Shown here one piece after another: positions 17,883-30,773 of a stretch of 57,543 bases of DNA; position 1 is the first letter of the stretch; each line of letters begins with the position of its first letter. The DNA comes from Candidatus Nomurabacteria bacterium GW2011_GWE2_34_25 (lineage in GTDB: Bacteria > Patescibacteriota > Minisyncoccia > Phycocordibacterales > UBA9973), in assembly GCA_000990325.1 (NCBI GenBank), contig LBPS01000001.1:1-57543 (forward strand), written 5' to 3'. Under the pieces are notes generated by a model. The model had not been told where the DNA came from. It searched no databases and saw only the letters and a list, made by a program, of their open reading frames with translations. The translations under genes were made by a program, and so were the position numbers.

Positions 17883-18051
17883 CTATGTTTACCTGTATTT
17901 TACCATGATATCGTTTTGGATAGTCATTATTTGCTTCTATATCAATATTTTACTTTTTATCATATTTTTGATACTATACTTGGGTGAGTTTAGGTGTTTA
18001 GGGGGTACTTTAATAAAAGGTAAATAGTTAGATAACTGCACTCAATCTTGT

Positions 18052-18174
18052 TCCGTGGTAGCAGAGCGGTGGAGTGAGAACTGGGAAGGGACCCAGTTTG
18101 CAAGACTTTGAACGCTTTGTAATCAAAGTGTGAAAAGTGTACAGTCCCTGTAAGGGAATCGCCTGTAAGGTGAT
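18052..18174 (+). pseudogene. Degenerate partial copy of tRNA-Asn (5' acceptor/D-arm and anticodon-arm-like segments split by ~80 nt, no T-arm)
   Basis: tccgtggtagcagagcggtggag versus tRNA tccgtggtagctcagcggtagag. atcgcctgtaaggtgat versus tRNA anticodon arm atcgcctgttaagcgat. Confidence 0.35.
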
Positions 18175-18228
18175 CGCAAGTGAATAAACAATATAGTATG
18201 TATTAAGTTCCGCAATAAATAAACACAT

Positions 18229-18300
18229 TCCGTGGTAGCTCAGCGGTAGAGCGATCGCCTGTTAAGCGATTGGTCGTAGGTTCGATCCCTACCCACGGAG
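18229..18300 (+). tRNA. tRNA-Asn (anticodon GTT)
   Basis: Full cloverleaf drawn by hand: acceptor TCCGTGG/CCACGGA, D stem GCTC/GAGC, anticodon stem ATCGC/GCGAT with loop CTGTTAA, T stem GTAGG/CCTAC with loop TTCGATC. No encoded CCA. Confidence 0.92.
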
Positions 18301-19968
18301 CAAGATAGGACAAACGTCCCCAAAAACCTCATTTCGTTCTGAAGTATCAATGATATTTTCAGGTTCGAACTGAGGATTTTTTGTTCTTGCTTCATTTAGT
18401 CCATCAATGAGTTTCTGTATTGGTTCTACGTTGATAATATTAAGTATTTTCTCATTCCATACTAGGTTCGAACCAAGTTTGGTAAACATAGCTCTTTTGT
18501 CTTTTGTTAAACCATTTTTAATGATTTCAGATATTTCTGTTGTTAAATCAACCATATCATTAGCAATTTTATACCAATCACGATTTTTATTTTTAGGATT
18601 ATTTAATTCTAAAAGTTCTTTGTCTATTCCATCTATATCAGCTTTATAATCTGAAGCATTAATTTGACCATCAGCGAGCATTTGACGATACCTTCTTTTA
18701 CGTTCTTCTAATTGTTCTATCAATGGAGTTCTACTTGCAGATTCAATTAAATCGGTCTGAATCTCTTTGTCTTTAATTTCACTTATGTTACGTTTACACC
18801 ATTCAGCTAGAGATTGTGACATAACTAAGTTTTTCTCGGTGTATGAACGAAAATATGTCGTTATTTTTCCTTCCTCAATATACTTAACAGATTCTCTCTT
18901 TTTTCTCTTAGGTACATTGTAATAGTAAGAATAATTAAGATATTTAGGATTCTTGATTTTATTTATTGCTATTCCACATTTAGGACAATTAGTTTTGTTT
19001 TGACTAGCAAATTTATATTTACATTGGCATATTACTTGTAGCTTAATATCTGCTCCTATAAACTCACCAAATGGAGATTTTATAAAACCAGAATAAGTAG
19101 ATTCGTGGGTCTGTGTTTTAGGTAGTGTTCTACTGGATAACATTCTTAGTATTTTAAAATGGTCATCCTCAGTTATTATTCTAGGTAAGTCTTTTGAGAG
19201 TTCATATTTTGTATTTTGTTGATAAAATACTCCAGCATATATTGAGTCTTTAAGAATTGTATAAACTCTTGAGTAAGTAATTAAATTACCACCACTTCTT
19301 TTGTGTTTAGGTGTAGTTAGTTTAGCTGAATTTATAGCCCAGTCATAAATTTGTGTTCCAGAATAATTTCCTGACAGGAACATATTAAGCATCTCTTTAA
19401 TTATTGGTAGTCTTATTTCATCCACCATCCATTTGCGATTTCCTTTTTCTTCTGTTTTATCATTTAAGAAACCAAGAGTAGCAAGTCCGTGAGGATACCC
19501 CATAGATGCTTTTTTGGTTTGCCCACGTTTAACATTTACTGATAGTTCTTTTACAAATTGTTTTCCTTGGCTGAATTCAACTGACAAAACAATAACATTA
19601 TCCCAAGGATAAAATACTTTATCGTGTGTAATTATTGCCTTAATTTTTCCTGAACTTAGAAGGTCAATTATCTGTCCTCCTTCCGTCATATTTCTAGCTA
19701 GTCTGTCTGCTTTCCAGCAAACAATTGCATCTATCTCTCCCTTATCTATCATCTTCATCATTCTAGAAAACTCTGGTCTTACTCCTTCTGCTTTGGCTGA
19801 TTTTGATTCTTTAAATACTCCCACAAATGGTGAGAGTTTATAAAACTCTGCTATTCTTTTTGCTTCATCTGTCTGAGAATCAATAGAAAGCATCTGTCTA
19901 TCTTCATCTTCAGTAGATTTTCGATTATAATTTCCGATTTTTAATTTTGTAAAATCTATTGGGTTCAT
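18289..19968 (-). CDS. Large serine recombinase (integrase)
   Basis: 559 aa. N-terminal resolvase catalytic region YNRKSTEDEDRQMLSIDSQ. Recombinase domain. Zn-ribbon CQCKY..CPKCG. C-terminal coiled coil. Its last 12 nt overlap the 3' end of tRNA-Asn on the opposite strand. Confidence 0.88.
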   Translation of the reverse strand: MNPIDFTKLKIGNYNRKSTEDEDRQMLSIDSQTDEAKRIAEFYKLSPFVGVFKESKSAKAEGVRPEFSRMMKMIDKGEIDAIVCWKADRLARNMTEGGQIIDLLSSGKIKAIITHDKVFYPWDNVIVLSVEFSQGKQFVKELSVNVKRGQTKKASMGYPHGLATLGFLNDKTEEKGNRKWMVDEIRLPIIKEMLNMFLSGNYSGTQIYDWAINSAKLTTPKHKRSGGNLITYSRVYTILKDSIYAGVFYQQNTKYELSKDLPRIITEDDHFKILRMLSSRTLPKTQTHESTYSGFIKSPFGEFIGADIKLQVICQCKYKFASQNKTNCPKCGIAINKIKNPKYLNYSYYYNVPKRKKRESVKYIEEGKITTYFRSYTEKNLVMSQSLAEWCKRNISEIKDKEIQTDLIESASRTPLIEQLEERKRRYRQMLADGQINASDYKADIDGIDKELLELNNPKNKNRDWYKIANDMVDLTTEISEIIKNGLTKDKRAMFTKLGSNLVWNEKILNIINVEPIQKLIDGLNEARTKNPQFEPENIIDTSERNEVFGDVCPILLRG

Positions 19969-23761: not shown

Positions 23762-26065
23762 ATGGCTATTACTAGTGTTGTAACTAAATACAAACCTCTC
23801 AAAATAGGATTTTTGGTTCGAGAGGGAGAGTTGGATGATATCCTTGAGGTTGCAAGGATTAATTCCTTTCTGGTTGGAGGAACTCATAATCTTATTATAC
23901 CAATAAATGAAAGCAATAATGAAGAAATTATCAAAATAATAGTAAACTCAGACATAGACATTTTACATCCAATTATCACAACGCCTGCGTTAAGTGAAAT
24001 ATTAAAAAATCTTCCTTATTTTAAGACTCCCCATAATTTTTCAGATGAGATGTGGGAAGAAGATTGGCGTGCTGATAAAAAGAATGAATTTATATACCTT
24101 GATGTATTTCATACAATCAAGCTAAAGAATGAAAAATATTTTCGTGGAACCCCAAAAAAAGAAAAAAGTAATGTAGCATATATAAGTTGGGAGGATGAAG
24201 ATATACTGAAAAATTGGCTTCTCTTATCCTTTGGAACATTTAAGTCGAATTATAATTTAAAAAAATTATTCGAAAAAGGGTTCGTGAATGGTTTAAGAGC
24301 AATTGATGTCAAAATTCTCCCGCAGGGGAAAATACCACAAATTATTTCCAAGAAAATAACGCCAAGAGTTTTCTCCACTATTGATTTAAAAAGTTATGGA
24401 AATATTGGTCTCAATGCTGGTATTTACATAGGAGATGAGAATAATTTTGATGACCTTGCAACTTTCTGGAATTTAAGAGCAATTGGAACTAGATTAATAT
24501 TTTGTCCAATTTTAAACTATGAAAGAGCGAAAGATTACCTTCAAGCTGAAATAACAGCTATGACACAAGGAGATGATGACACTATTTTTAATGCTAGTAT
24601 TTATTACTTATCAAGTAGGAATAAAGAAGAAATTGAACCTTTTGAAAAATTATTTACTGTAGCCAGACCTTTAATGTTAAGACCCATTTCAAAAGACACT
24701 ATTTTTAGCTATTTTGACGACCTTCCGATAGATTATCTAAATTGGGAATTTTCACAAACTATAGTAGAAAATGAGAACGGTGGGATTATAACTACCGTTA
24801 ACTTACCTAAAAAGAAATTCATATTTGATGACTCTGATGATATTCATATTCAAAAACAATCGTTTGGGGTATTCATAGATGAACTTGGCAAAATTGACTC
24901 AAGTTATTTTTTGAACCCTCCAAATATTAAATCTTTGAATGAATTTTATAGCAGGGAGATGTGTTTTGACCCGTGGAAAATTCGCGTTGGAAAAGAAGGT
25001 GTAACAGCGATAATTGACACAGAAGAGAAATATATAAAATTGAGACCCCTAGAACAAGGACTTATAATTCAAAAATTATTTGAAGACCTTGGAGTTTATA
25101 ATAAGTTAAGTCAGGCAGGGTTACTTTCCCAAAAAATTATAAATAAACTATCTTCAATAGAGGGTGCTCGAGTTTTCAAAATCGGTGGAGTTCGAGAACT
25201 ATTTGAAAGATTATCATCAACAACTTCTCTGCCGAACTCGACAATATTAGATATTATTAAGCAAAAAAATAATGGAGTAGATGGATTTGAAAAGCATAAA
25301 AATCTTTTTATAGAGTCTAGAGAAGAAAAACAGCTGAAACCAAGAATGGTTTTTGATTTTTTATTAAAGATGGGATTCTTGAGAGCAGGTCTTGAGTTGT
25401 ATTGTAAAAGCTGTAATCTGAAAAATTGGCTTAATTTAAAAGCAATTGATGATAATTGGGAATGCGAATACTGTGGTAATAAAAACTTAACATCTATCGA
25501 CCTTACCAATAGAGGTGACTGGAGATTTAGAAAAAGTGGGTTATTTGCAAAAGATAACAATCAAGAAGGTTCTATACCCGTAATTTTAACACTTCTTTAC
25601 TTTCAAAGAATTATCTCAGGCAGTTTTTTGTCATCGCCGTCACTAAAGTTAAACTTTGATAAAAAGGAGGTGGAAATAGATTTTTGCATTGTTCAATATA
25701 AACAACATCAAGGTAATAAAATTGAGGTGGCTATAGGAGAATGTAAAAGTGCAGGCGGGGTAATAACACAAGGAGACTGTGATAATTTAAAAAATGTTGC
25801 CAATAAGTTGCGGGAGAAGGGTTATGACGTTTATATAATATTTTCAAAAACCGCAGACAGATTTTTGCTTGAAGAAATAGAGTTATTTAAAAAACTTAAT
25901 GTTGAAAAATATAAATTGATTATTCTTACTAATAAAGAAATTGAACCTTATCATCCTTACTGGGAAGCTGATGACAAAGAAAAATTACCAACCAAATCAG
26001 TTATTAGCTTACAGGATGCATATAAAAATAGTTTTTATAGATACCTGCGAGATTTAAAGGAGTAA
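23762..26065 (+). CDS. Large hypothetical protein with C-terminal Zn-ribbon and PD-(D/E)xK-like nuclease module
   Basis: 767 aa. CKSCN-x17-CEYCG zinc ribbon, then EIDFCIV...KIEVAIGECKS (D...ExK spacing typical of the restriction-endonuclease fold). N-terminal ~540 aa not recognised. Confidence 0.6.
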   Translation: MAITSVVTKYKPLKIGFLVREGELDDILEVARINSFLVGGTHNLIIPINESNNEEIIKIIVNSDIDILHPIITTPALSEILKNLPYFKTPHNFSDEMWEEDWRADKKNEFIYLDVFHTIKLKNEKYFRGTPKKEKSNVAYISWEDEDILKNWLLLSFGTFKSNYNLKKLFEKGFVNGLRAIDVKILPQGKIPQIISKKITPRVFSTIDLKSYGNIGLNAGIYIGDENNFDDLATFWNLRAIGTRLIFCPILNYERAKDYLQAEITAMTQGDDDTIFNASIYYLSSRNKEEIEPFEKLFTVARPLMLRPISKDTIFSYFDDLPIDYLNWEFSQTIVENENGGIITTVNLPKKKFIFDDSDDIHIQKQSFGVFIDELGKIDSSYFLNPPNIKSLNEFYSREMCFDPWKIRVGKEGVTAIIDTEEKYIKLRPLEQGLIIQKLFEDLGVYNKLSQAGLLSQKIINKLSSIEGARVFKIGGVRELFERLSSTTSLPNSTILDIIKQKNNGVDGFEKHKNLFIESREEKQLKPRMVFDFLLKMGFLRAGLELYCKSCNLKNWLNLKAIDDNWECEYCGNKNLTSIDLTNRGDWRFRKSGLFAKDNNQEGSIPVILTLLYFQRIISGSFLSSPSLKLNFDKKEVEIDFCIVQYKQHQGNKIEVAIGECKSAGGVITQGDCDNLKNVANKLREKGYDVYIIFSKTADRFLLEEIELFKKLNVEKYKLIILTNKEIEPYHPYWEADDKEKLPTKSVISLQDAYKNSFYRYLRDLKE

Positions 26066-26138
26066 TCTAAGAATCTCCATTCAACTGAAATTCCATAATA
26101 TAATATATAAATTAAGAAATAAATAGCAGTTTTGTTAT

Positions 26139-27494
26139 TTATTTTTTTGATTTTACTTTAGATATTTTTTTATTTATCTTTTTCATTATTCTATTGAAAT
26201 TAATTTGCTGTTTAGAATGAGAAATATTTATTTTTTTATAAGCTCTTTTTGCGTAACTTACATAATTTTGTTTACCAAAACTAGAAAATCTTTCATAAAT
26301 TTTCCTTTTAAAGATTGGTATCTTTAATTCCTTAGCTTCCTCAACTTTTTTATATATAAATTTAGTCATCTTGCGTTCAAACTTAGCATAGCCTTTATGT
26401 CTTAGGTATGTATCATCACTACTCAAAACTATACCTAAATAATTTAATCTTGAATTCTTGTCATCTTCGTCTATGCAAATAAACTTATTGTCATTATTTT
26501 TAAAAAGTCTTTTTTCTGTTTTTGAATCTTGAATTTTCAGTTTTAACCCTTGAATAGTTTCTTTGGCAAAGCTCTCAATCTCAGCTAATTTATTTTGTGG
26601 GCAAATAATTATAATATCATCTGAGTATCTTCTATATAGACCACCTAAATTATTAATTTTGTTTAAAATTGCCTTATCAGAAGGCAACATATATAAATTT
26701 GCCAATACACAACTTATTGGAGTTCCCTGTGGTATTCCTTTAGCTTTATTTTTCTTTATTTTTTTATTGTCTCTTAAAAAATCTAGTGTTTTACTATTTA
26801 AAATAAATTTTTTATTTGGATAGATTTCTGCTATAGATTTTTTTAACTTGATAATTTCTCTTCTTCTTATATAAGAATATCTAGTTATGGACTTAAAAAC
26901 GTTAAAATGGTCATCTGGGAGAGATTTTACACCTAGATTATTTTTCCAACTATTTTTTAATATATCAAAATCTAAATTATCATAAAATCCTTCTATGTCT
27001 AGGGATAAAGAAGCACACTCCTTCTTCTTTTTTACAAAACCAAAAACCTCTAATGCAAAATCAATGTTTGATTTACCTAGTTTTCGATAAGCAATTACAT
27101 TATCATCTAACCCGCAATCTTTAATTTGTTTTTCGTAAAAAAATTCTAACTGATAGGTATACCAAGAGTATATTAAACTATCATAATGGGAGGGGTAGCT
27201 TATTGGTCTATCTTTCCATACAATCTTTTTTATATTTGTTTTAGGGTCTTTTTTATAAATACGATTACCTATGGGAGATTTAAATAGTGGATAAAAGGAG
27301 TGAGATTTTATTAATTCTGGATTAGTAATTTCATTTGCAATTTCTTCTGTTATTTTTACGATTGGCTTATCAAAATGCAAATAGCGTCGAGGTCGACGCT
27401 TTTGTATCAACTCATTTTGTTTTAAAATCCAACTATCTTTGAGTTGATTAAGTATAATTGGTTCCATAAGACACACACCCCACCTATCAGACAC
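26139..27494 (-). CDS. Stand-alone reverse transcriptase (defence-type/unknown-group RT; no fused effector domain recognised)
   Basis: RT motifs in order: RPISYPSHYDSLIYS, LSLDIEGFYDNLDFDIL, GIPQGTPISCVLANLYM, YRRYSDDIIII (YxDD), LKLKIQDSKTE, LNYLGIVL. K-rich helical C-terminus. The more likely start is ATG at 27467 (MEPIILNQL). Confidence 0.85.
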   Translation of the reverse strand: MSDRWGVCLMEPIILNQLKDSWILKQNELIQKRRPRRYLHFDKPIVKITEEIANEITNPELIKSHSFYPLFKSPIGNRIYKKDPKTNIKKIVWKDRPISYPSHYDSLIYSWYTYQLEFFYEKQIKDCGLDDNVIAYRKLGKSNIDFALEVFGFVKKKKECASLSLDIEGFYDNLDFDILKNSWKNNLGVKSLPDDHFNVFKSITRYSYIRRREIIKLKKSIAEIYPNKKFILNSKTLDFLRDNKKIKKNKAKGIPQGTPISCVLANLYMLPSDKAILNKINNLGGLYRRYSDDIIIICPQNKLAEIESFAKETIQGLKLKIQDSKTEKRLFKNNDNKFICIDEDDKNSRLNYLGIVLSSDDTYLRHKGYAKFERKMTKFIYKKVEEAKELKIPIFKRKIYERFSSFGKQNYVSYAKRAYKKINISHSKQQINFNRIMKKINKKISKVKSKK

Positions 27495-27759
27495 CTGGCA
27501 TCTTTAAAATATAACAGGGGGGCTAAAAGAGGTTAATCTCGACTGGCTAAAGCCTAAAAATCGTTTTCACGACCAGGAAAAGTGCATTGAAACATAAATG
27601 ATATGATTATTACAAACATAGTCGTAACCTTCAAATCTTTAATTGTTAGATTGTTTATCTTTCTTCTTTATTGCCTATGGCGACCCGAGGGTTGCCATAC
27701 AACTTTAAATGAGTTGACAAACATTAACACTCATCTCGTAGACGTATATCTCCACGAGC
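27468..27759 (-). ncRNA. Candidate structured non-coding leader / template RNA of the RT
   Basis: ~290 nt between a near-consensus minus-strand promoter and the RT ATG, with no listed minus-strand ORF. Hairpins at 27735-27758 (wobble consistent with the minus strand), 27676-27699 (GC-rich) and 27561-27572 (tcgt-GAAA-acga on the minus strand). Confidence 0.45.
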
Positions 27760-27765
27760 AACCTA

Positions 27766-27794
27766 ATTATAGCTCGATTTTATATAAAAATCAA
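27766..27794 (-). promoter_or_regulatory. Sigma70-type promoter driving the RT leader
   Basis: Minus strand reads TTGATT-17 nt-TATAAT (-35 = 27794..27789, -10 = 27771..27766). Confidence 0.6.
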
Positions 27795-27820
27795 TCTATA
27801 TTTTCAGACAGAATACTTTT

Positions 27821-27846
27821 CCGAACTTCGTCCCAAGCTCGGAGCA
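27821..27846. repeat. Island boundary motif, copy 1 (between the divergent RT and SLOG promoters)
   Basis: ccgAACTTCGTCCCAaGCTCGGAGCA. Related copies at 28980-29035 and 30042-30066. Confidence 0.6.
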
Positions 27847-27849
27847 TTG

Positions 27850-27877
27850 TTGACAAATCTATAAAATATGATATCAT
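27850..27877 (+). promoter_or_regulatory. Promoter of the SLOG operon
   Basis: TTGACA-16 nt-TATCAT with TG extension (tgatatcat). Confidence 0.55.
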
Positions 27878-27920
27878 ATGCAAAGTGATAGTTCTTTGAT
27901 ATTAGGATTTAAGTTACATT

Positions 27921-27971
27921 GATTGAATTATTTTTGTTTCTAAAAATTTTAGAGACGAAAATAATTCAATC
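27921..27971 (+). promoter_or_regulatory. Leader hairpin 1 (terminator/attenuator-like) in the 5' UTR of the SLOG gene
   Basis: 22+ bp stem gattgaattatttttgtttcta / tagagacgaaaataattcaatc. The two non-Watson-Crick pairs are U.G on the + strand. Followed by attttttaa. The 5' arm is identical to hairpin 2. Confidence 0.65.
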
Positions 27972-28000
27972 ATTTTTTAACTTATAAAATCCAAAACAAA

Positions 28001-28570
28001 ATGAGAAAAACATTAACGATCGGAGTAATGGGTCCTGGTGCAAACGCAACAGAACAAGAAATTTTACTTGCTGAAAAAGTAGGGAAAATTATTGCCAGGA
28101 AGGGTCATTATGTATTAACTGGTGGTTCAAACACTGGAGTAATGAATGCTGCTTTGAAAGGAGCAAAAAGTTATGATTCCAAGACTGGAACAATAGCAAT
28201 ACTTTCTCATAATGGAGAAATAGAAAAAACCTCGCCTTATGCAGATGTCTGTATTCCTACTGGAATGGGTGAAGGCAGAAACTATATGAATATAAGAAGT
28301 TGCGACATCATTATTTTTTGTTGTAATAATTTGTACAAATCAGCTGGAACATTTTCAGAGTTTGCATTTACGATTAAACACAGAAAACCAGTCATATTTT
28401 TACACCAAAAAGATGATCCCAATAACAAATTTAGAAAGATTTGGGAACAACTTTTAACTTCTATCTGTGAAGAAGATCAACACGAAGATCAAATCATCGC
28501 GGACAACATTCAAGATCTCGATAAGTATCTTGATATTATTATTGAAAAAATAAGTAATATTCACACTTAA
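28001..28570 (+). CDS. SLOG-superfamily protein (TIGR00725 / LOG-like Rossmannoid nucleotide-binding fold)
   Basis: IGVMGPG...GHYVLTGGSNTGVMNAALKGA...IPTGMGEGRNYMNI...AGTFSEF, matching the TIGR00725/LOG pattern as I know it. Confidence 0.7.
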   Translation: MRKTLTIGVMGPGANATEQEILLAEKVGKIIARKGHYVLTGGSNTGVMNAALKGAKSYDSKTGTIAILSHNGEIEKTSPYADVCIPTGMGEGRNYMNIRSCDIIIFCCNNLYKSAGTFSEFAFTIKHRKPVIFLHQKDDPNNKFRKIWEQLLTSICEEDQHEDQIIADNIQDLDKYLDIIIEKISNIHT

Positions 28571-28580
28571 ATTTACCGAT

Positions 28581-28892
28581 ATGGAAAAATCTGTTACCAG
28601 AAAAATTCTAAAAGGTTTAGAACTTTTTGAGAATTTACCTAATTTAAAGATTATAGAAGTTCTTGGAAAGAATTTTTATTTAATCTTAGACGAGGGTGAT
28701 GAAATTGAAGTAACTGTATGGTCGGTGGAAAAAAGACATGAATATAATTCTTGGACCTTAAGCGTCAGTATAAAATCAGAGAACACTGAAAATTTATTAA
28801 AAAGATTTACGCTCGCTTATAATACCCAAGAAAAGGAAGCCGAAATATATTTACCAAATAAAAACTACCAGGAGTTAACCTTTTTCACTTAA
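28581..28892 (+). CDS. Hypothetical small protein co-transcribed with the SLOG gene
   Basis: 103-aa ORF 10 nt downstream of the SLOG stop, followed by a hairpin. No motif recognised. Confidence 0.55.
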   Translation: MEKSVTRKILKGLELFENLPNLKIIEVLGKNFYLILDEGDEIEVTVWSVEKRHEYNSWTLSVSIKSENTENLLKRFTLAYNTQEKEAEIYLPNKNYQELTFFT

Positions 28893-28979
28893 AAAAGCTG
28901 TTTGATTTAATGTTTGTAAAAATCCTACCTCTCCATGAAGTTAAAGGATTTTTTTATTTTCTACTCAATATACTTATTA

Positions 28980-29035
28980 GAACTTCGTCCCATCCAGTAC
29001 CCAGTAGGTTATTTTTATAAATGAGGTTCGGAGCA
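28980..29035. repeat. Island boundary motif, copy 2 (split by a 33-nt insert)
   Basis: gAACTTCGTCCCA[33 nt]GGTTCGGAGCA. Confidence 0.55.
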
Positions 29036-29075
29036 AAATTTTGAGCCATATTTTATTATGGTTATTTTTGATGTA

Positions 29076-29104
29076 TTGACAGTAACCTAGATTAGAAGTA
29101 ATGT
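29076..29104 (+). promoter_or_regulatory. Promoter of the ORF 29137-29336 unit
   Basis: TTGACA-17 nt-TAATGT. Confidence 0.5.
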
Positions 29105-29136
29105 GAAGAAAATAGTAACCTCTAAAAATTGATATT

Positions 29137-29331
29137 ATGACAAAGATTGAAAAATTATTAGAACAATATGACCATGAATCAGCAGAGTATGTTGTTTTGC
29201 ATGCTGAAAACGAAAAGCGTCATGGGAGAGAACCATCACAGCCGTTTGCTGGAGAAAATGATCCTAAAAAAGCGTTACAAATTGCACTGTCTCTCGCTTA
29301 TTTACCAACTGATATAATCCTAACTATTTAA
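29137..29331 (+). CDS. Hypothetical small protein
   Basis: 64-aa ORF, 4 nt upstream of the next ORF. Confidence 0.45.
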   Translation: MTKIEKLLEQYDHESAEYVVLHAENEKRHGREPSQPFAGENDPKKALQIALSLAYLPTDIILTI

Positions 29332-29335
29332 AGAT

Positions 29336-29947
29336 ATGGATACTATCAACAAGAGAGACCATTTAAAATGGATAGAAGAAAATTTTGGTCCTCAGTATGT
29401 GCTTGAATATTTTGTTTGTTATAATTTAGAACAAATAAAAGAAGCTATAAAATATTTTGAGGTTCAAAAAAAACCATGGGCAGTTAGAACAGATACGACA
29501 GGTTCTTTTTTTCAAAAAGACAGCTCTCCTTTCTGTAAAGAAAACCCGTTAGAGGTTTTTAATATATGGGAGGAATATGGTACTAATTTATATTATATTG
29601 TTTGCGCAACTCAACCGAAGGATCTTATTTGCCAAGCAATAGCGTTTTATATAGATAGTGAACATATTGTTATTGAATTCAATGACATTGATCCAAATTC
29701 AACCACCATTAGAGATATGGATAAAAAACCTTATGATCAGTTGAAAAGAATAGGAGTTGGTCCTAATACAATGATCTTGCATCCACTTTACCCTACTCTA
29801 TTTTTACGCTCTTTTAGACCTGAACAAGTAACAAAATGGTCTTTTGATCGTATTTATTATTTAATGATGGATCAATTACTGTTAGGAAATAGTGTGAACA
29901 GGATAGAATTCACTGTAAAATCTGGGGGAGGAATAATTATTTGGTAA
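29336..29947 (+). CDS. Hypothetical protein
   Basis: 203-aa ORF. No motif recognised. Followed by a wobble-containing terminator hairpin (~29983-30025). Confidence 0.55.
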   Translation: MDTINKRDHLKWIEENFGPQYVLEYFVCYNLEQIKEAIKYFEVQKKPWAVRTDTTGSFFQKDSSPFCKENPLEVFNIWEEYGTNLYYIVCATQPKDLICQAIAFYIDSEHIVIEFNDIDPNSTTIRDMDKKPYDQLKRIGVGPNTMILHPLYPTLFLRSFRPEQVTKWSFDRIYYLMMDQLLLGNSVNRIEFTVKSGGGIIIW

Positions 29948-30684: not shown

Positions 30685-30728
30685 AAAAGAAAAACAGTTT
30701 TTTGAAATTGAATTTTGGGTTATGTTTG

Positions 30729-30773
30729 TTGAATTATTTTTGTTTCTAATATTTGGAAATGAGAATAATTCAA
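30729..30773 (+). promoter_or_regulatory. Leader hairpin 2 in the 5' UTR of ORF 30803 (paralog of hairpin 1)
   Basis: ttgaattatttttgtttc / gaaatgagaataattcaa: 18 bp with three positions kept paired only as G.U/U.G on the + strand. Same distance from promoter and ATG as hairpin 1. Confidence 0.6.

What the first reader, a model, noticed from the sequence alone, without database searches (positions are those of the whole stretch)
26139..27794. Compact stand-alone reverse transcriptase with a promoter-driven ~290-nt ORF-free structured leader: candidate RT-ncRNA defence system
The 451-aa ORF has all RT palm/finger motifs, including YSDD. I recognise no fused nuclease, nitrilase, primase, HEPN or maturase-X domain, and I see no group II intron RNA features around it.

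On its own strand, a near-consensus promoter (TTGATT-17-TATAAT, 27794..27766) sits about 290 nt upstream of the likely ATG at 27467. That interval has no listed minus-strand ORF. It is unusually structured for this AT-rich genome:
- a hairpin at the predicted 5' end (27735-27758), whose wobble pair only works on the minus strand;
- an 11-bp GC-rich hairpin (27676-27699);
- a GNRA-capped stem tcgt-GAAA-acga (27561-27572);
- a possible long-range cctgg/ccagg pairing that brackets the last 90 nt.

An RT with an upstream same-strand ncRNA is the architecture of retrons and of ncRNA-dependent defence RTs such as DRT2, DRT3 and DRT9. The protein is too long for a typical retron RT, and I could not see retron a1/a2 repeats. 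It lies inside an integrase-bounded island in what looks like a CPR-type genome. This is my best candidate for an undescribed system.
Basis: partly seen in the sequence, partly recalled or inferred. Interest (0 to 1): 0.85.

Follow-up and report, generated by a model that had tools for sequence, protein, structure and literature searches.

The report
DRT2 antiviral reverse transcriptase locus
This is a member of the already described DRT2 phage-defence family, in which a reverse transcriptase copies part of its own upstream non-coding RNA round and round to build a toxic 'never-ending' gene; here it sits in a tiny-genome Patescibacteria (CPR) bacterium and has some variant details.

Summary
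There is a 442-aa RT (YSDD; true ATG at 27467, not the GTG at 27494). A conserved promoter sits about 290 nt upstream, and the leader is structured.

It is not an undescribed system. The RT is DRT2: PADLOC Drt2 E=2e-126, full-length match to the solved K. pneumoniae DRT2 structures at E=6e-66, and NCBIfam Drt2 at 388.4 bits against a cutoff of 390.

The leader carries the published DRT2/neo signature:
- a 135-nt template (27594-27728) flanked by a direct GTT repeat;
- template lengths that are multiples of 3 in 16/16 homologs;
- one stop-free antisense frame, encoding a hydrophobic 45-aa repeat;
- a promoter, TTGACA-17 nt-TATGAT, that exists only across the repeat junction;
- a 5' handle hairpin and a 3' pseudoknotted scaffold.

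It differs from canonical DRT2 in five ways. The jump motif is GTT or ATT instead of ACA. The junction sits elsewhere in the promoter spacer. Neo is read in the other permitted frame, and its only ATG lies inside the -10 box. The 3' scaffold is missed by Rfam RT-12.

Verdict: a new member of a known family, possibly a subtype. Interest is low to moderate.

The parts
27766..27794 (-). Promoter of the ncRNA-RT transcript: -35 TTGATT (27794-27789), 17-nt spacer, -10 TATAAT (27771-27766).
   Evidence: Found by the promoter scan. A -10-like box sits at the same alignment position in all 16 homologous loci.
27470..27760 (-). DRT2 ncRNA, about 285-290 nt. The ends are inferred, not mapped.
   Evidence: Conserved and covarying in 16 loci. 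Folding z = -2.9. The clade covariance model R1 matches 27470-27597 at 90 bits, its only match in the window.
27735..27758 (-). 5' handle hairpin: 8-bp stem (27758-27751 with 27742-27735) and loop GAUAUACG.
   Evidence: 100% of cells paired, and 6 of 8 pairs have compensatory changes. Coordinates.
27726..27728 (-). GTT-1: the 5' copy of the direct trinucleotide repeat. It lies inside the template and is the inferred end point of each round of reverse transcription.
   Evidence: The two copies are identical in 16/16 loci (13 GTT, 3 ATT, changing together).
27594..27728 (-). Template region, 135 nt. Its reverse complement is one neo repeat of 45 codons: INDMIITNIVVTFKSLIVRLFIFLLYCLWRPEGCHTTLNELTNIN. 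The boundary is ambiguous by 1 nt within TGTT.
   Evidence: Template length is a multiple of 3 and one circular antisense frame is stop-free in 16/16 loci. It is the best solution of a relaxed scan of the leader, 11 of 12 promoter positions.
27714..27719 (+). -35 hexamer TTGACA of the neo promoter, near the 3' end of the repeat in neo sense.
   Evidence: Conserved as TTGACA, TTGACT, TTTACA or TTGCGA in 16 loci. It lies 17 nt from the -10 only across the repeat junction.
27602..27607 (+). -10 hexamer TATGAT of the neo promoter, near the 5' end of the repeat in neo sense. It contains the only in-frame ATG (27603-27605).
   Evidence: Conserved as TATGAT, TATAAT, TATGCT or TATAGT in 16 loci. The promoter scan lists no plus-strand promoter-like site here on the linear genome.
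27676..27699 (-). GC-rich hairpin inside the template.
   Evidence: Predicted in the MFE fold. The apical 3 pairs (27692-27690 with 27685-27683) all show compensatory changes.
27591..27593 (-). GTT-2: the 3' copy of the direct repeat, just outside the template. It is the inferred landing site of the template jump. The plus-strand TGA at 27588-27590 closes the frame on the linear genome.
27494..27577 (-). Pseudoknot stem S1: CCUGG (27577-27573) pairs with CCAGG (27498-27494). It encloses two hairpins and crosses helix S2.
   Evidence: 97.5% of cells paired, and 4 of 5 pairs have compensatory changes. It is among the top-ranked covarying helices in an unbiased helix search.
27561..27572 (-). GNRA-capped hairpin UCGU-GAAA-ACGA.
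   Evidence: 3 of 4 pairs have compensatory changes.
27545..27554 (-). Hairpin GGC-UUUA-GCC (consensus GGCUUAAGCC).
   Evidence: All 3 pairs have compensatory changes.
27479..27522 (-). Helix S2: 27522-27515 pairs with 27486-27479. Its loop holds the 3' strand of S1, giving an H-type pseudoknot. It ends 12 nt before the RT start codon.
   Evidence: 94.6% of cells paired; most changes are on one side only.
26139..27467 (-). DRT2 reverse transcriptase, 442 aa, RT domain only.
   Evidence: PADLOC Drt2 E=2e-126. NCBIfam NF041746 388.4 bits against a cutoff of 390. Matches PDB 9c0i (Kpn DRT2) at E=6e-66 over residues 25-431. The start codon is set by the homologs.
26616..26627 (-). Catalytic YSDD motif (Y281-D284).
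   Evidence: Read directly from the sequence. The columns are invariant in alignment A2.

Best explanation
This is a DRT2 (UG2, class 2 defence-associated RT) anti-phage system on the chromosome of a Patescibacteria bacterium.

Shown by sequence analysis:
- The RT belongs to DRT2.
- The roughly 290-nt leader is a conserved, covarying RNA with a 5' handle hairpin, a 135-nt template and a 3' pseudoknotted scaffold.
- The template is flanked by a direct GTT repeat.
- The antisense of the template, once circularly permuted, has one stop-free frame of 45 codons.
- A sigma-70-type promoter (TTGACA, 17 nt, TATGAT) is formed only across the head-to-tail junction.

Inferred from the published K. pneumoniae DRT2 mechanism:
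1. One promoter (27794-27766) makes the ncRNA-RT transcript.
2. The RT binds the handle and scaffold. It reverse transcribes the template from 27594 towards 27728.
3. At GTT-1 the nascent cDNA 3' end (AAC) re-pairs with GTT-2, and copying starts again. This is rolling-circle reverse transcription, and it gives concatemers of 135-nt repeats.
4. Phage infection leads to double-stranded concatemeric cDNA.
5. The junction promoters drive a repetitive mRNA antisense to the ncRNA.
6. That mRNA is translated into a hydrophobic, stop-less Neo polypeptide that arrests the infected cell (abortive infection or dormancy).

Translation probably starts at the ATG embedded in the -10 box of a downstream repeat, without a Shine-Dalgarno sequence. 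That fits a genome in which 1 of 38 genes has one.
For: RT classification:
- PADLOC Drt2 E=2e-126; the next best family is RT_UG17 at 1.7e-19.
- NCBIfam Drt2 388.4 bits, against Drt3a 51.8, retron 51.4 and group II 65.
- Full-length match to the solved Kpn DRT2 structures (9c0i and others) at E=6e-66.
- Homologs at 36-41% identity are named Drt2 by NCBI.

ncRNA:
- 16 loci align from the promoter to the ATG.
- 95.7% of cells are paired, against 28-46% in the slid controls. 23 of 33 pairs are compensatory, including the pseudoknot stem.

Neo signature:
- The flanking trinucleotides are identical in 16/16 loci and change together (GTT/GTT or ATT/ATT).
- Template lengths are 132, 135, 138, 147, 150 or 153 nt, all multiples of 3. 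The 3' domain lengths show no such bias (7, 5 and 4 loci in the three residue classes).
- Exactly one stop-free circular frame occurs in 16/16 loci. Only 10% of shuffles of the window's unit have any.
- The -35 and -10 boxes are 17 nt apart across the junction in 16/16 loci.
- Neo GRAVY is +0.74, against -0.16 to -0.66 for ordinary proteins in the window and +0.85 to +1.04 for canonical Neo.

Controls:
- Positive control: the same extraction on enterobacterial and Vibrio DRT2 loci recovers the published 117/120-nt ACA-flanked units and the TTGACA-17-TATAAT junction.
- Unbiased scan: 74 of 168 DRT2 loci have a full solution antisense to the leader, against 5 of 168 on the sense strand.
- No conserved partner gene appears in the homologous loci.
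Against: - Nothing here is experimental. No cDNA, transcript or defence phenotype has been observed.
- NCBIfam's curated Drt2 cutoff is missed by 1.6 bits.
- The conserved ACA-1/ACA-2 motifs of canonical DRT2 are absent.
- The Rfam RT-12 model, which hits the canonical DRT2 3' scaffold at 72-85 bits, does not hit this leader even at E<=10.
- I could not identify a basal stem (SL2) joining the template ends in a consistent register.
- There is no RBS plus start codon downstream of the -10. The only ATG lies inside the -10 hexamer.
- The exact jump site is inferred. A second repeat (ATGTT, 129-nt unit) exists in the window, but it gives an 11-nt spacer and is not conserved.
Confidence: 0.88

Rival explanations
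1. It is a different ncRNA-dependent class 2 UG/DRT system, such as DRT9 (poly-dA synthesis), DRT3 or DRT10 (short tandem repeats). It would make a non-coding DNA product rather than a neo gene.
For: The architecture is shared: a stand-alone RT with an upstream ncRNA. There are weak secondary PADLOC hits to Drt9 (6e-16) and Drt3a (3e-13). The ACA motifs and the Rfam RT-12 match are absent.
Against: The Drt2 profile scores about 110 orders of magnitude better than any other DRT. The match to the DRT2 structures is full length. The multiple-of-3 template lengths, the stop-free antisense frame and the junction promoter in 16/16 loci have no role in those other mechanisms.
Confidence: 0.04
2. It is a decayed or inactive DRT2 relic, or the ncRNA now serves only as a 5' UTR or regulator of RT expression.
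For: No experimental activity is known. The host has a reduced genome. The NCBIfam score is just under its cutoff.
Against: The RT ORF is intact with all invariant columns, including YSDD. Every ncRNA and neo feature is intact and matches the clade consensus. The identical protein is seen on 20 contigs.
Confidence: 0.05
3. It is a retron, a group II intron or a DGR reverse transcriptase with its cognate RNA.
For: It has a generic RT domain (RVT_1) and an upstream structured RNA.
Against: The retron model scores 51 bits against a cutoff of 235, and the group II RT/maturase model 65 against 300. No Rfam intron or retron RNA is found at E<=10. The 5'-3' pairing in the window's MFE fold lies in non-conserved columns. 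No template-repeat/variable-repeat pair exists nearby; the longest direct repeat is 59 nt at 76% identity.
Confidence: 0.01
4. The 98-aa plus-strand ORF (27603-27899) is an ordinary small gene expressed from the chromosome, and the leader conservation reflects that gene.
For: The frame is open for 306 nt in 27% GC DNA.
Against: In homologs the frame stays open beyond the template for very different lengths, 24-114 nt. Only the template part is constrained. Covariation supports an RNA on the minus strand, including G-U pairs. No promoter is found upstream on the plus strand. The ATG lies in a conserved -10 box.
Confidence: 0.02

Closest known systems
DRT2 (UG2) of Klebsiella pneumoniae, the neo gene-synthesis system (Tang et al. 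2024, PMC11100668; Wilkinson et al. 2024, PMC12039810; PDB 9c0i)
   Same: - A single-domain RT of about 430-440 aa, aligned end to end at E=6e-66.
- An ncRNA of about 280-290 nt upstream, driven by a shared promoter.
- A 5' handle hairpin.
- A template flanked by a direct trinucleotide repeat, with length a multiple of 3.
- An antisense stop-free frame encoding a hydrophobic repeat.
- -35 and -10 boxes that come 17 nt apart only across the repeat junction.
- A 3' scaffold with the same order: stem S1 5' strand, two hairpins, then helix S2 whose loop holds the S1 3' strand (a pseudoknot).
   Different: - The jump repeat is GTT (ATT in 3 relatives), not ACA.
- The repeat unit is 135 nt (132-153 in the clade) instead of 111-129.
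- The junction lies 9 nt after the -35 and 8 nt before the -10, against 6 and 11 in the canonical loci.
- Neo is read as TTG-ACA across the -35, against xTT-GAC-Axx. This is the other of the two frames that avoid TGA and TAA in the promoter boxes.
- The only ATG is inside the -10 (TATGAT), and there is no RBS.
- The catalytic motif is YSDD, against YCDD.
- The 3' scaffold is not recognised by Rfam RT-12.
- The host is a CPR bacterium that has almost no Shine-Dalgarno sequences.
Rfam RF03016 (RT-12 RNA), the 3' domain of the canonical DRT2 ncRNA
   Same: The position (immediately upstream of the RT gene, same strand) and the topology (pseudoknotted scaffold after the template).
   Different: No match to the window at E<=10 or to clade members L168 and L004 at the gathering score. 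Canonical loci L067 and L005 score 85 and 72 bits. A clade-specific model (R1) finds this scaffold only in the close clade and a few further metagenomic or CPR loci.
Other ncRNA-templated class 2 DRTs (DRT9, DRT10, DRT3b) and retrons
   Same: An RT plus a cis-encoded structured ncRNA that is both scaffold and template. The function is abortive-infection-type defence.
   Different: Those systems make homopolymers, short telomere-like repeats or msDNA, and most need extra effector proteins. Here the template bears coding and promoter constraints. Profile scores for those families are far below their thresholds.

Membership tests
DRT2 (UG2) | The RT sequence belongs to the DRT2 family. | tested here: met
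   PADLOC Drt2 E=2e-126. PDB Kpn DRT2 9c0i at E=6e-66, residues 25-431 against 10-419. NCBIfam NF041746 scores 388.4 bits, 1.6 bits below the curated 390 cutoff.
DRT2 (UG2) | Stand-alone RT with no fused effector domain and no conserved partner gene. | tested here: met
   RVT_1 is the only Pfam domain. The alignment to the 425-aa Kpn RT leaves no extra domain. The neighbours differ in all 10 close homolog loci for which DNA was recovered.
DRT2 (UG2) | An ncRNA of about 280 nt directly upstream on the same strand, transcribed from a promoter shared with the RT. | tested here: met
   A conserved -10 box lies 5-7 nt before the first hairpin in 16/16 loci. The conserved, covarying RNA runs to within 12 nt of the ATG. 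The transcript itself has not been observed.
DRT2 (UG2) | 5' handle hairpin upstream of the template. | tested here: met
   8-bp stem at 27735-27758, 100% paired, with 6 compensatory pairs.
DRT2 (UG2) | 3' scaffold with hairpins and a pseudoknot. | tested here: met
   S1 (27577-27573 with 27498-27494) crosses S2 (27522-27515 with 27486-27479). Two hairpins lie between them. S1 has 4 of 5 compensatory pairs.
DRT2 (UG2) | Conserved ACA-1/ACA-2 trinucleotides flanking the template. | tested here: not met
   No ACA pair is present. The position that aligns with ACA-1 of the enterobacterial loci reads AAT. The functional equivalent is the next row.
DRT2 (UG2) | [quoted passage not shown] | tested here: met
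   GTT/GTT in 13 loci and ATT/ATT in 3 loci. The two copies are always identical.
DRT2 (UG2) | Template length is a multiple of 3, and one stop-free frame exists in the concatenated antisense strand (neo). | tested here: met
   16/16 loci, with 6 distinct lengths. The 3' domain lengths are unconstrained. Shuffles of the window's unit are stop-free in 10% of cases.
DRT2 (UG2) | -35 and -10 elements that form a 17-bp-spaced promoter only across the repeat junction. | tested here: met
   TTGACA, 17 nt, TATGAT in the window. The same geometry holds in 16/16 loci. No plus-strand promoter-like site is listed at the -10 on the linear genome. The junction sequence is absent from the window.
DRT2 (UG2) | RBS and start codon shortly downstream of the -10. 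| tested here: not met
   The only in-frame ATG (27603) is inside the -10 hexamer, and no SD is present. The host genome has an SD at 1 of 38 genes. Wilkinson et al. note that some orthologs lack the canonical start.
DRT2 (UG2) | Short basal stem (SL2) joining the template ends, with the second repeat copy in its 3' half. | tested here: inconclusive
   Duplex predictions between the linker and the post-template segment give no consistent register across the 16 loci. No covarying helix was found there.
DRT2 (UG2) | Production of concatemeric cDNA, neo mRNA and Neo protein, and phage defence. | not testable with these tools
   This needs experiments. See decisive next steps.
Rfam RF03016 RT-12 RNA | Match to the covariance model at the gathering score (44.2 bits). 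| tested here: not met
   No hit in window 25500-29000 at E<=10. Canonical loci score 72-85 bits.
Retron | Retron-type RT plus an msr/msd RNA with a1/a2 inverted repeats. | tested here: not met
   The retron model scores 51.4 bits against a cutoff of 235. The terminal pairing seen in the single-sequence fold is not conserved.
Group II intron | RT/maturase plus intron RNA domains. | tested here: not met
   TIGR04416 scores 65 bits against a cutoff of 300. No intron RNA family is found at E<=10.

The most novel reading that the evidence does not exclude
The window may represent a distinct 'GTT-type' DRT2 subtype. It would be shared by Patescibacteria and some other uncultured lineages.

In this subtype:
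- the template jump uses a GTT or ATT repeat instead of ACA;
- the junction sits at a different place in the promoter spacer;
- Neo is read in the alternative frame that the promoter boxes permit, and starts from an ATG built into the -10 box;
- the 3' scaffold is a different RNA family from Rfam RT-12.

Tang et al. reported that Neo could not easily be annotated in divergent DRT2 clades and raised the possibility of alternative mechanisms. This analysis would resolve that for one such clade. It would also show that de novo gene synthesis operates in ultra-small CPR bacteria that translate without Shine-Dalgarno sequences.
Probability: 0.5. Interest if true: 0.4.

Novelty: new member of a known kind. 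Interest (0 to 1): 0.25.

Why it matters
The practical result is that this locus should be annotated as DRT2, not pursued as a new system.

Its residual value is comparative. It extends the neo gene-synthesis mechanism to Patescibacteria. It also shows which features are invariant:
- a direct trinucleotide repeat flanking the template;
- template length a multiple of 3;
- a stop-free antisense frame;
- a 17-bp split promoter across the junction;
- a 5' handle;
- a pseudoknotted 3' scaffold.

And it shows which features are free to vary:
- the identity of the jump trinucleotide;
- the position of the junction within the spacer;
- the reading frame;
- the start-codon arrangement;
- the scaffold sequence.

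That gives natural covariation tests for the template-jump model, and a covariance model for finding such ncRNAs that Rfam RT-12 misses.

Tried and rejected
1. First template hypothesis. I took the template as the distance between the two ATGTT copies (129 nt in the window). This also gives multiples of 3 and a stop-free frame. I rejected it for two reasons. It puts the conserved TATGAT/TATAAT box only 11 nt from the -35. The AAT/ATG part of that repeat is also not matched in several loci, whereas the GTT or ATT copy 6 nt further out is matched in 16/16.

2. Other readings of the -10. GATTAT or TATTAC would give spacers of 14 or 17 nt, but these hexamers are less conserved than TATGAT/TATAAT. 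Rejected.

3. Rfam search of the region at E<=10. Only noise appeared (miRNA and snoRNA models). No RT-associated family was found.

4. Search for an SL2-like basal stem. Inconclusive.

5. AlphaFold of a four-repeat Neo.

6. Search for the predicted ccDNA junction in IMG/VR contigs. No match. Only one distant RT relative was found in viral contigs.

7. One close homolog (P0006) had no retrievable DNA.

8. Random 135-nt window segments are a poor null for a stop-free frame, because most of the window is coding (49% have an open frame). I used shuffles of the unit (10%) and the sense-strand control (5/168) instead.

9. The 767-aa neighbouring ORF gave no Pfam, PADLOC or PDB match.
Full report
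**What is there**

The minus strand carries an ORF at 26139-27494. It has an RVT_1 domain and the motif YSDD at 26616-27627... corrected: 26616-26627. Fifteen close homologs all begin M[E/D/N]P(I/T) at the position of the ATG at 27467. The protein is therefore 442 aa, and the GTG at 27494 is not the start.

Such matches are not enriched in this AT-rich DNA (9 found, 12.9 expected). What makes it credible is that a -10 box occupies the same alignment position in all 16 loci.

The leader folds more stably than all 200 shuffles, z = -2.9.

**Classification of the RT**

- PADLOC's Drt2 model matches at E=2e-126. The next family, RT_UG17, is at 1.7e-19.
- NCBIfam's Drt2 equivalog scores 388.4 bits, just under its 390 cutoff. 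Drt3a (51.8 against 200), retron (51.4 against 235) and group II RT/maturase (65 against 300) are far below theirs.
- The protein aligns end to end with the solved K. pneumoniae DRT2 structures (9c0i and others) at E=6e-66. No extra domain is left over.
- Of 953 homologs, the proteobacterial ones at 36-41% identity are named 'antiviral reverse transcriptase Drt2'. The closest clade (44-64% identity) comes from metagenomes and Patescibacteria MAGs.

The RT is a DRT2.

**What defines DRT2**

Tang et al. (PMC11100668) and Wilkinson et al. (PMC12039810) describe these features:
- an ncRNA of about 280 nt with a 5' handle;
- a template of 111-129 nt flanked by ACA-1 and ACA-2;
- a pseudoknotted 3' scaffold;
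- rolling-circle reverse transcription into concatemeric cDNA;
- a promoter (TTGACA/TATAAT) reconstituted only across the repeat junction;
- a stop-free antisense ORF (neo) whose hydrophobic product arrests growth.

**Homologous leaders**

I collected 172 loci. I aligned the upstream regions of the window and its 15 closest relatives.

The leader is conserved from the -10 box to the RT start. A structure of seven helices is 95.7% paired, against 28-46% when the partners are slid by 1-3 columns. 23 of 33 pairs show compensatory changes. The helices include:
- the 5' handle (27735-27758);
- a GC-rich hairpin inside the template (27676-27699);
- the GNRA hairpin (27561-27572);
- a GGC/GCC hairpin (27545-27554);
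- helix S2 (27522-27515 with 27486-27479);
- the long-range CCTGG/CCAGG stem S1 (27577-27573 with 27498-27494).

S1 crosses S2, so the two form an H-type pseudoknot.

The order of elements is S1 5' strand, two hairpins, then S2 with the S1 3' strand in its loop. This is the same order as in the canonical scaffold shown by the Rfam RT-12 alignment on an enterobacterial locus.

**The neo signature**

- A conserved block GTTAATGTTTGTCAAC follows the handle. Its reverse complement contains TTGACA (plus strand 27714-27719).
- A trinucleotide is repeated 9 nt 5' of TGTCAA and again just beyond the template. The two copies are identical in 16/16 loci: 13 GTT and 3 ATT, changing together.
- Taking the unit between the copies gives 135 nt in the window (27594-27728). 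Across the clade the units are 132, 135, 138, 147, 150 or 153 nt, all multiples of 3. The 3' domain lengths show no such bias.
- In all 16 loci the circularised antisense strand has exactly one stop-free frame. The junction places the -35 and -10 boxes exactly 17 nt apart.
- On the linear genome the frame is closed by a TGA at 27588-27590. The promoter scan lists no plus-strand promoter-like site at the -10.
- The Neo repeat is 45 aa (INDMIITNIVVTFKSLIVRLFIFLLYCLWRPEGCHTTLNELTNIN). Its GRAVY is +0.74. That is like canonical Neo (+0.85 to +1.04) and unlike ordinary proteins of the window (-0.16 to -0.66).

**Controls**

- Only 10% of shuffles of the window's unit have an open circular frame.
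- The same extraction on enterobacterial and Vibrio DRT2 loci reproduces the published 117/120-nt ACA-flanked units. Their junction is TTGACAaactgt|tagaaacactgTATAAT.
- I ran a blind scan of all loci requiring good hexamers, a 17-nt junction spacer, a trinucleotide repeat, a length that is a multiple of 3 and an open frame. It finds a solution antisense to the leader in 74 of 168 loci, against 5 of 168 on the sense strand.
- In the window, the 135-nt unit is the top solution (11 of 12 promoter positions). The next best score 9 or less.

**Differences from canonical DRT2**

- The jump repeat is GTT or ATT, not ACA.
- The junction lies 9 nt after the -35 and 8 nt before the -10. In the canonical loci it is 6 and 11.
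- The reading frame takes the -35 as TTG-ACA rather than xTT-GAC-Axx. These are the two frames that avoid TGA in TTGACA and TAA in TATAAT. The scan shows that the two classes use one each.
- The only ATG is inside the -10 hexamer, and there is no RBS.
- Rfam RT-12 hits the canonical scaffolds at 72-85 bits. It does not hit the window or its clade.
- A clade-specific covariance model (R1) finds this scaffold in the close clade, in one held-out member, and in four further loci. One of those is from a Falkowbacteria MAG; the other three are unassigned metagenome contigs. It finds none in the proteobacterial loci.
- I could not find an SL2-type basal stem.

Tang et al. noted that Neo annotation was harder in divergent clades. 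These differences may explain why. I cannot tell whether their supplementary data already cover this clade.

**Host and context**

- The window is chromosomal, with SecA, DnaE, HisRS, S1, GyrA and MltG.
- GyrA is 95% identical to Candidatus Nomurabacteria/Paceibacterota proteins. The CPR assignment therefore holds.
- The RT sequence is on record on contig DMBE01000011.1 of GCA_003446925.1, with matching neighbouring genes.
- A large serine recombinase (18289-19968) abuts tRNA-Asn (18229-18301). A copy of the tRNA 5' half lies at 18051-18077. This is consistent with an integrated island, but I did not find the far boundary.
- Only 1 of 38 genes has a Shine-Dalgarno sequence, and many have TATAAT 6-8 nt before the ATG. 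An SD-less neo start is therefore unremarkable in this host.
- Neighbours of the homologous RTs vary (restriction-modification genes, PrsW, PIN, recombinases). No partner gene is conserved.

**Verdict**

[quoted passage not shown] It belongs to a CPR-associated branch with variant jump motif, junction position, Neo frame and scaffold. No step of the mechanism has been observed here; all of it is inferred by homology. Decisive experiments are listed separately.

Noticed in passing
window, whole (e.g. 5560, 6321, 16562, 30592, 45232, 46036, 49564 gene starts): Only 1 of 38 long ORFs has a GGAG/GAGG/AGGA motif upstream. Many have a TATAAT box 6-8 nt before the ATG. This suggests widespread leaderless or SD-independent translation in this Patescibacteria genome.
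   Followed up: partly
window 18051-18301 and 18289-19968: A large serine recombinase (Resolvase + Recombinase domains, minus strand) overlaps the 3' end of tRNA-Asn (18229-18301). An 85%-identical copy of the tRNA 5' half lies 177 nt upstream (18051-18077). This is probably an integration scar. The other island boundary was not found.
   Followed up: partly
window 23762-26065 (+): A 767-aa ORF converges on the RT gene. It has no Pfam, PADLOC or PDB sequence match, and it has a CxxC...CxxC segment near residue 540-570. It is not found next to the homologous RTs, so it is probably an unrelated, possibly defence-related, island gene.
   Followed up: partly
window 28001-29947 (+): A SLOG/LDcluster4 protein (E=2e-35) is followed by three small ORFs with no family match. 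It is transcribed divergently from the DRT2 promoter region, from a TTGACA-16-TATCAT site at 27850-27877.
   Followed up: no
window 27890-27969, 30696-30754, 27813-27835, 28970-28992: A 59-nt intergenic element is repeated at 76% identity 2.8 kb away. It overlaps a 20-bp AT-rich inverted repeat (27923-27969) that also triggers spurious miRNA-model hits. A separate 23-nt repeat is also present. Function unknown.
   Followed up: no
loci L001-L172 (upstream of the RT match): Across DRT2 loci the blind scan separates two designs. ACA-type loci have the -10 starting 11 nt into the repeat and the -35 read as xTT-GAC-Axx. GTT/ATT-type loci have the -10 starting about 8 nt in and the -35 read as TTG-ACA. 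These are the only two frames that avoid stop codons in TTGACA and TATAAT.
   Followed up: partly
window 27729-27896 (+): The neo frame stays open for 168 nt beyond the template, through the handle and the ncRNA promoter. In the homologs it stays open for only 24-114 nt. This is probably chance plus the conserved handle sequence, but it is unexplained.
   Followed up: partly
L081-L085 (junction region): In the more distant clade members the -10 is a perfect TATAAT, and an in-frame ATG follows 1-4 nt later. This would suit a leaderless neo mRNA. In the window's subgroup the ATG is inside TATGAT.
   Followed up: no
L166 5019-5460: A second RVT_1 gene lies about 2 kb downstream of the DRT2 homolog on this contig.
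   Followed up: no
window 27383-27400: A perfect 7-bp GC-rich palindrome (AGCGTCGACCTCGACGCT) lies inside the RT coding sequence, about 70 nt after the start. It scores as terminator-like on both strands. It encodes the conserved RRPRRY segment.
   Followed up: no
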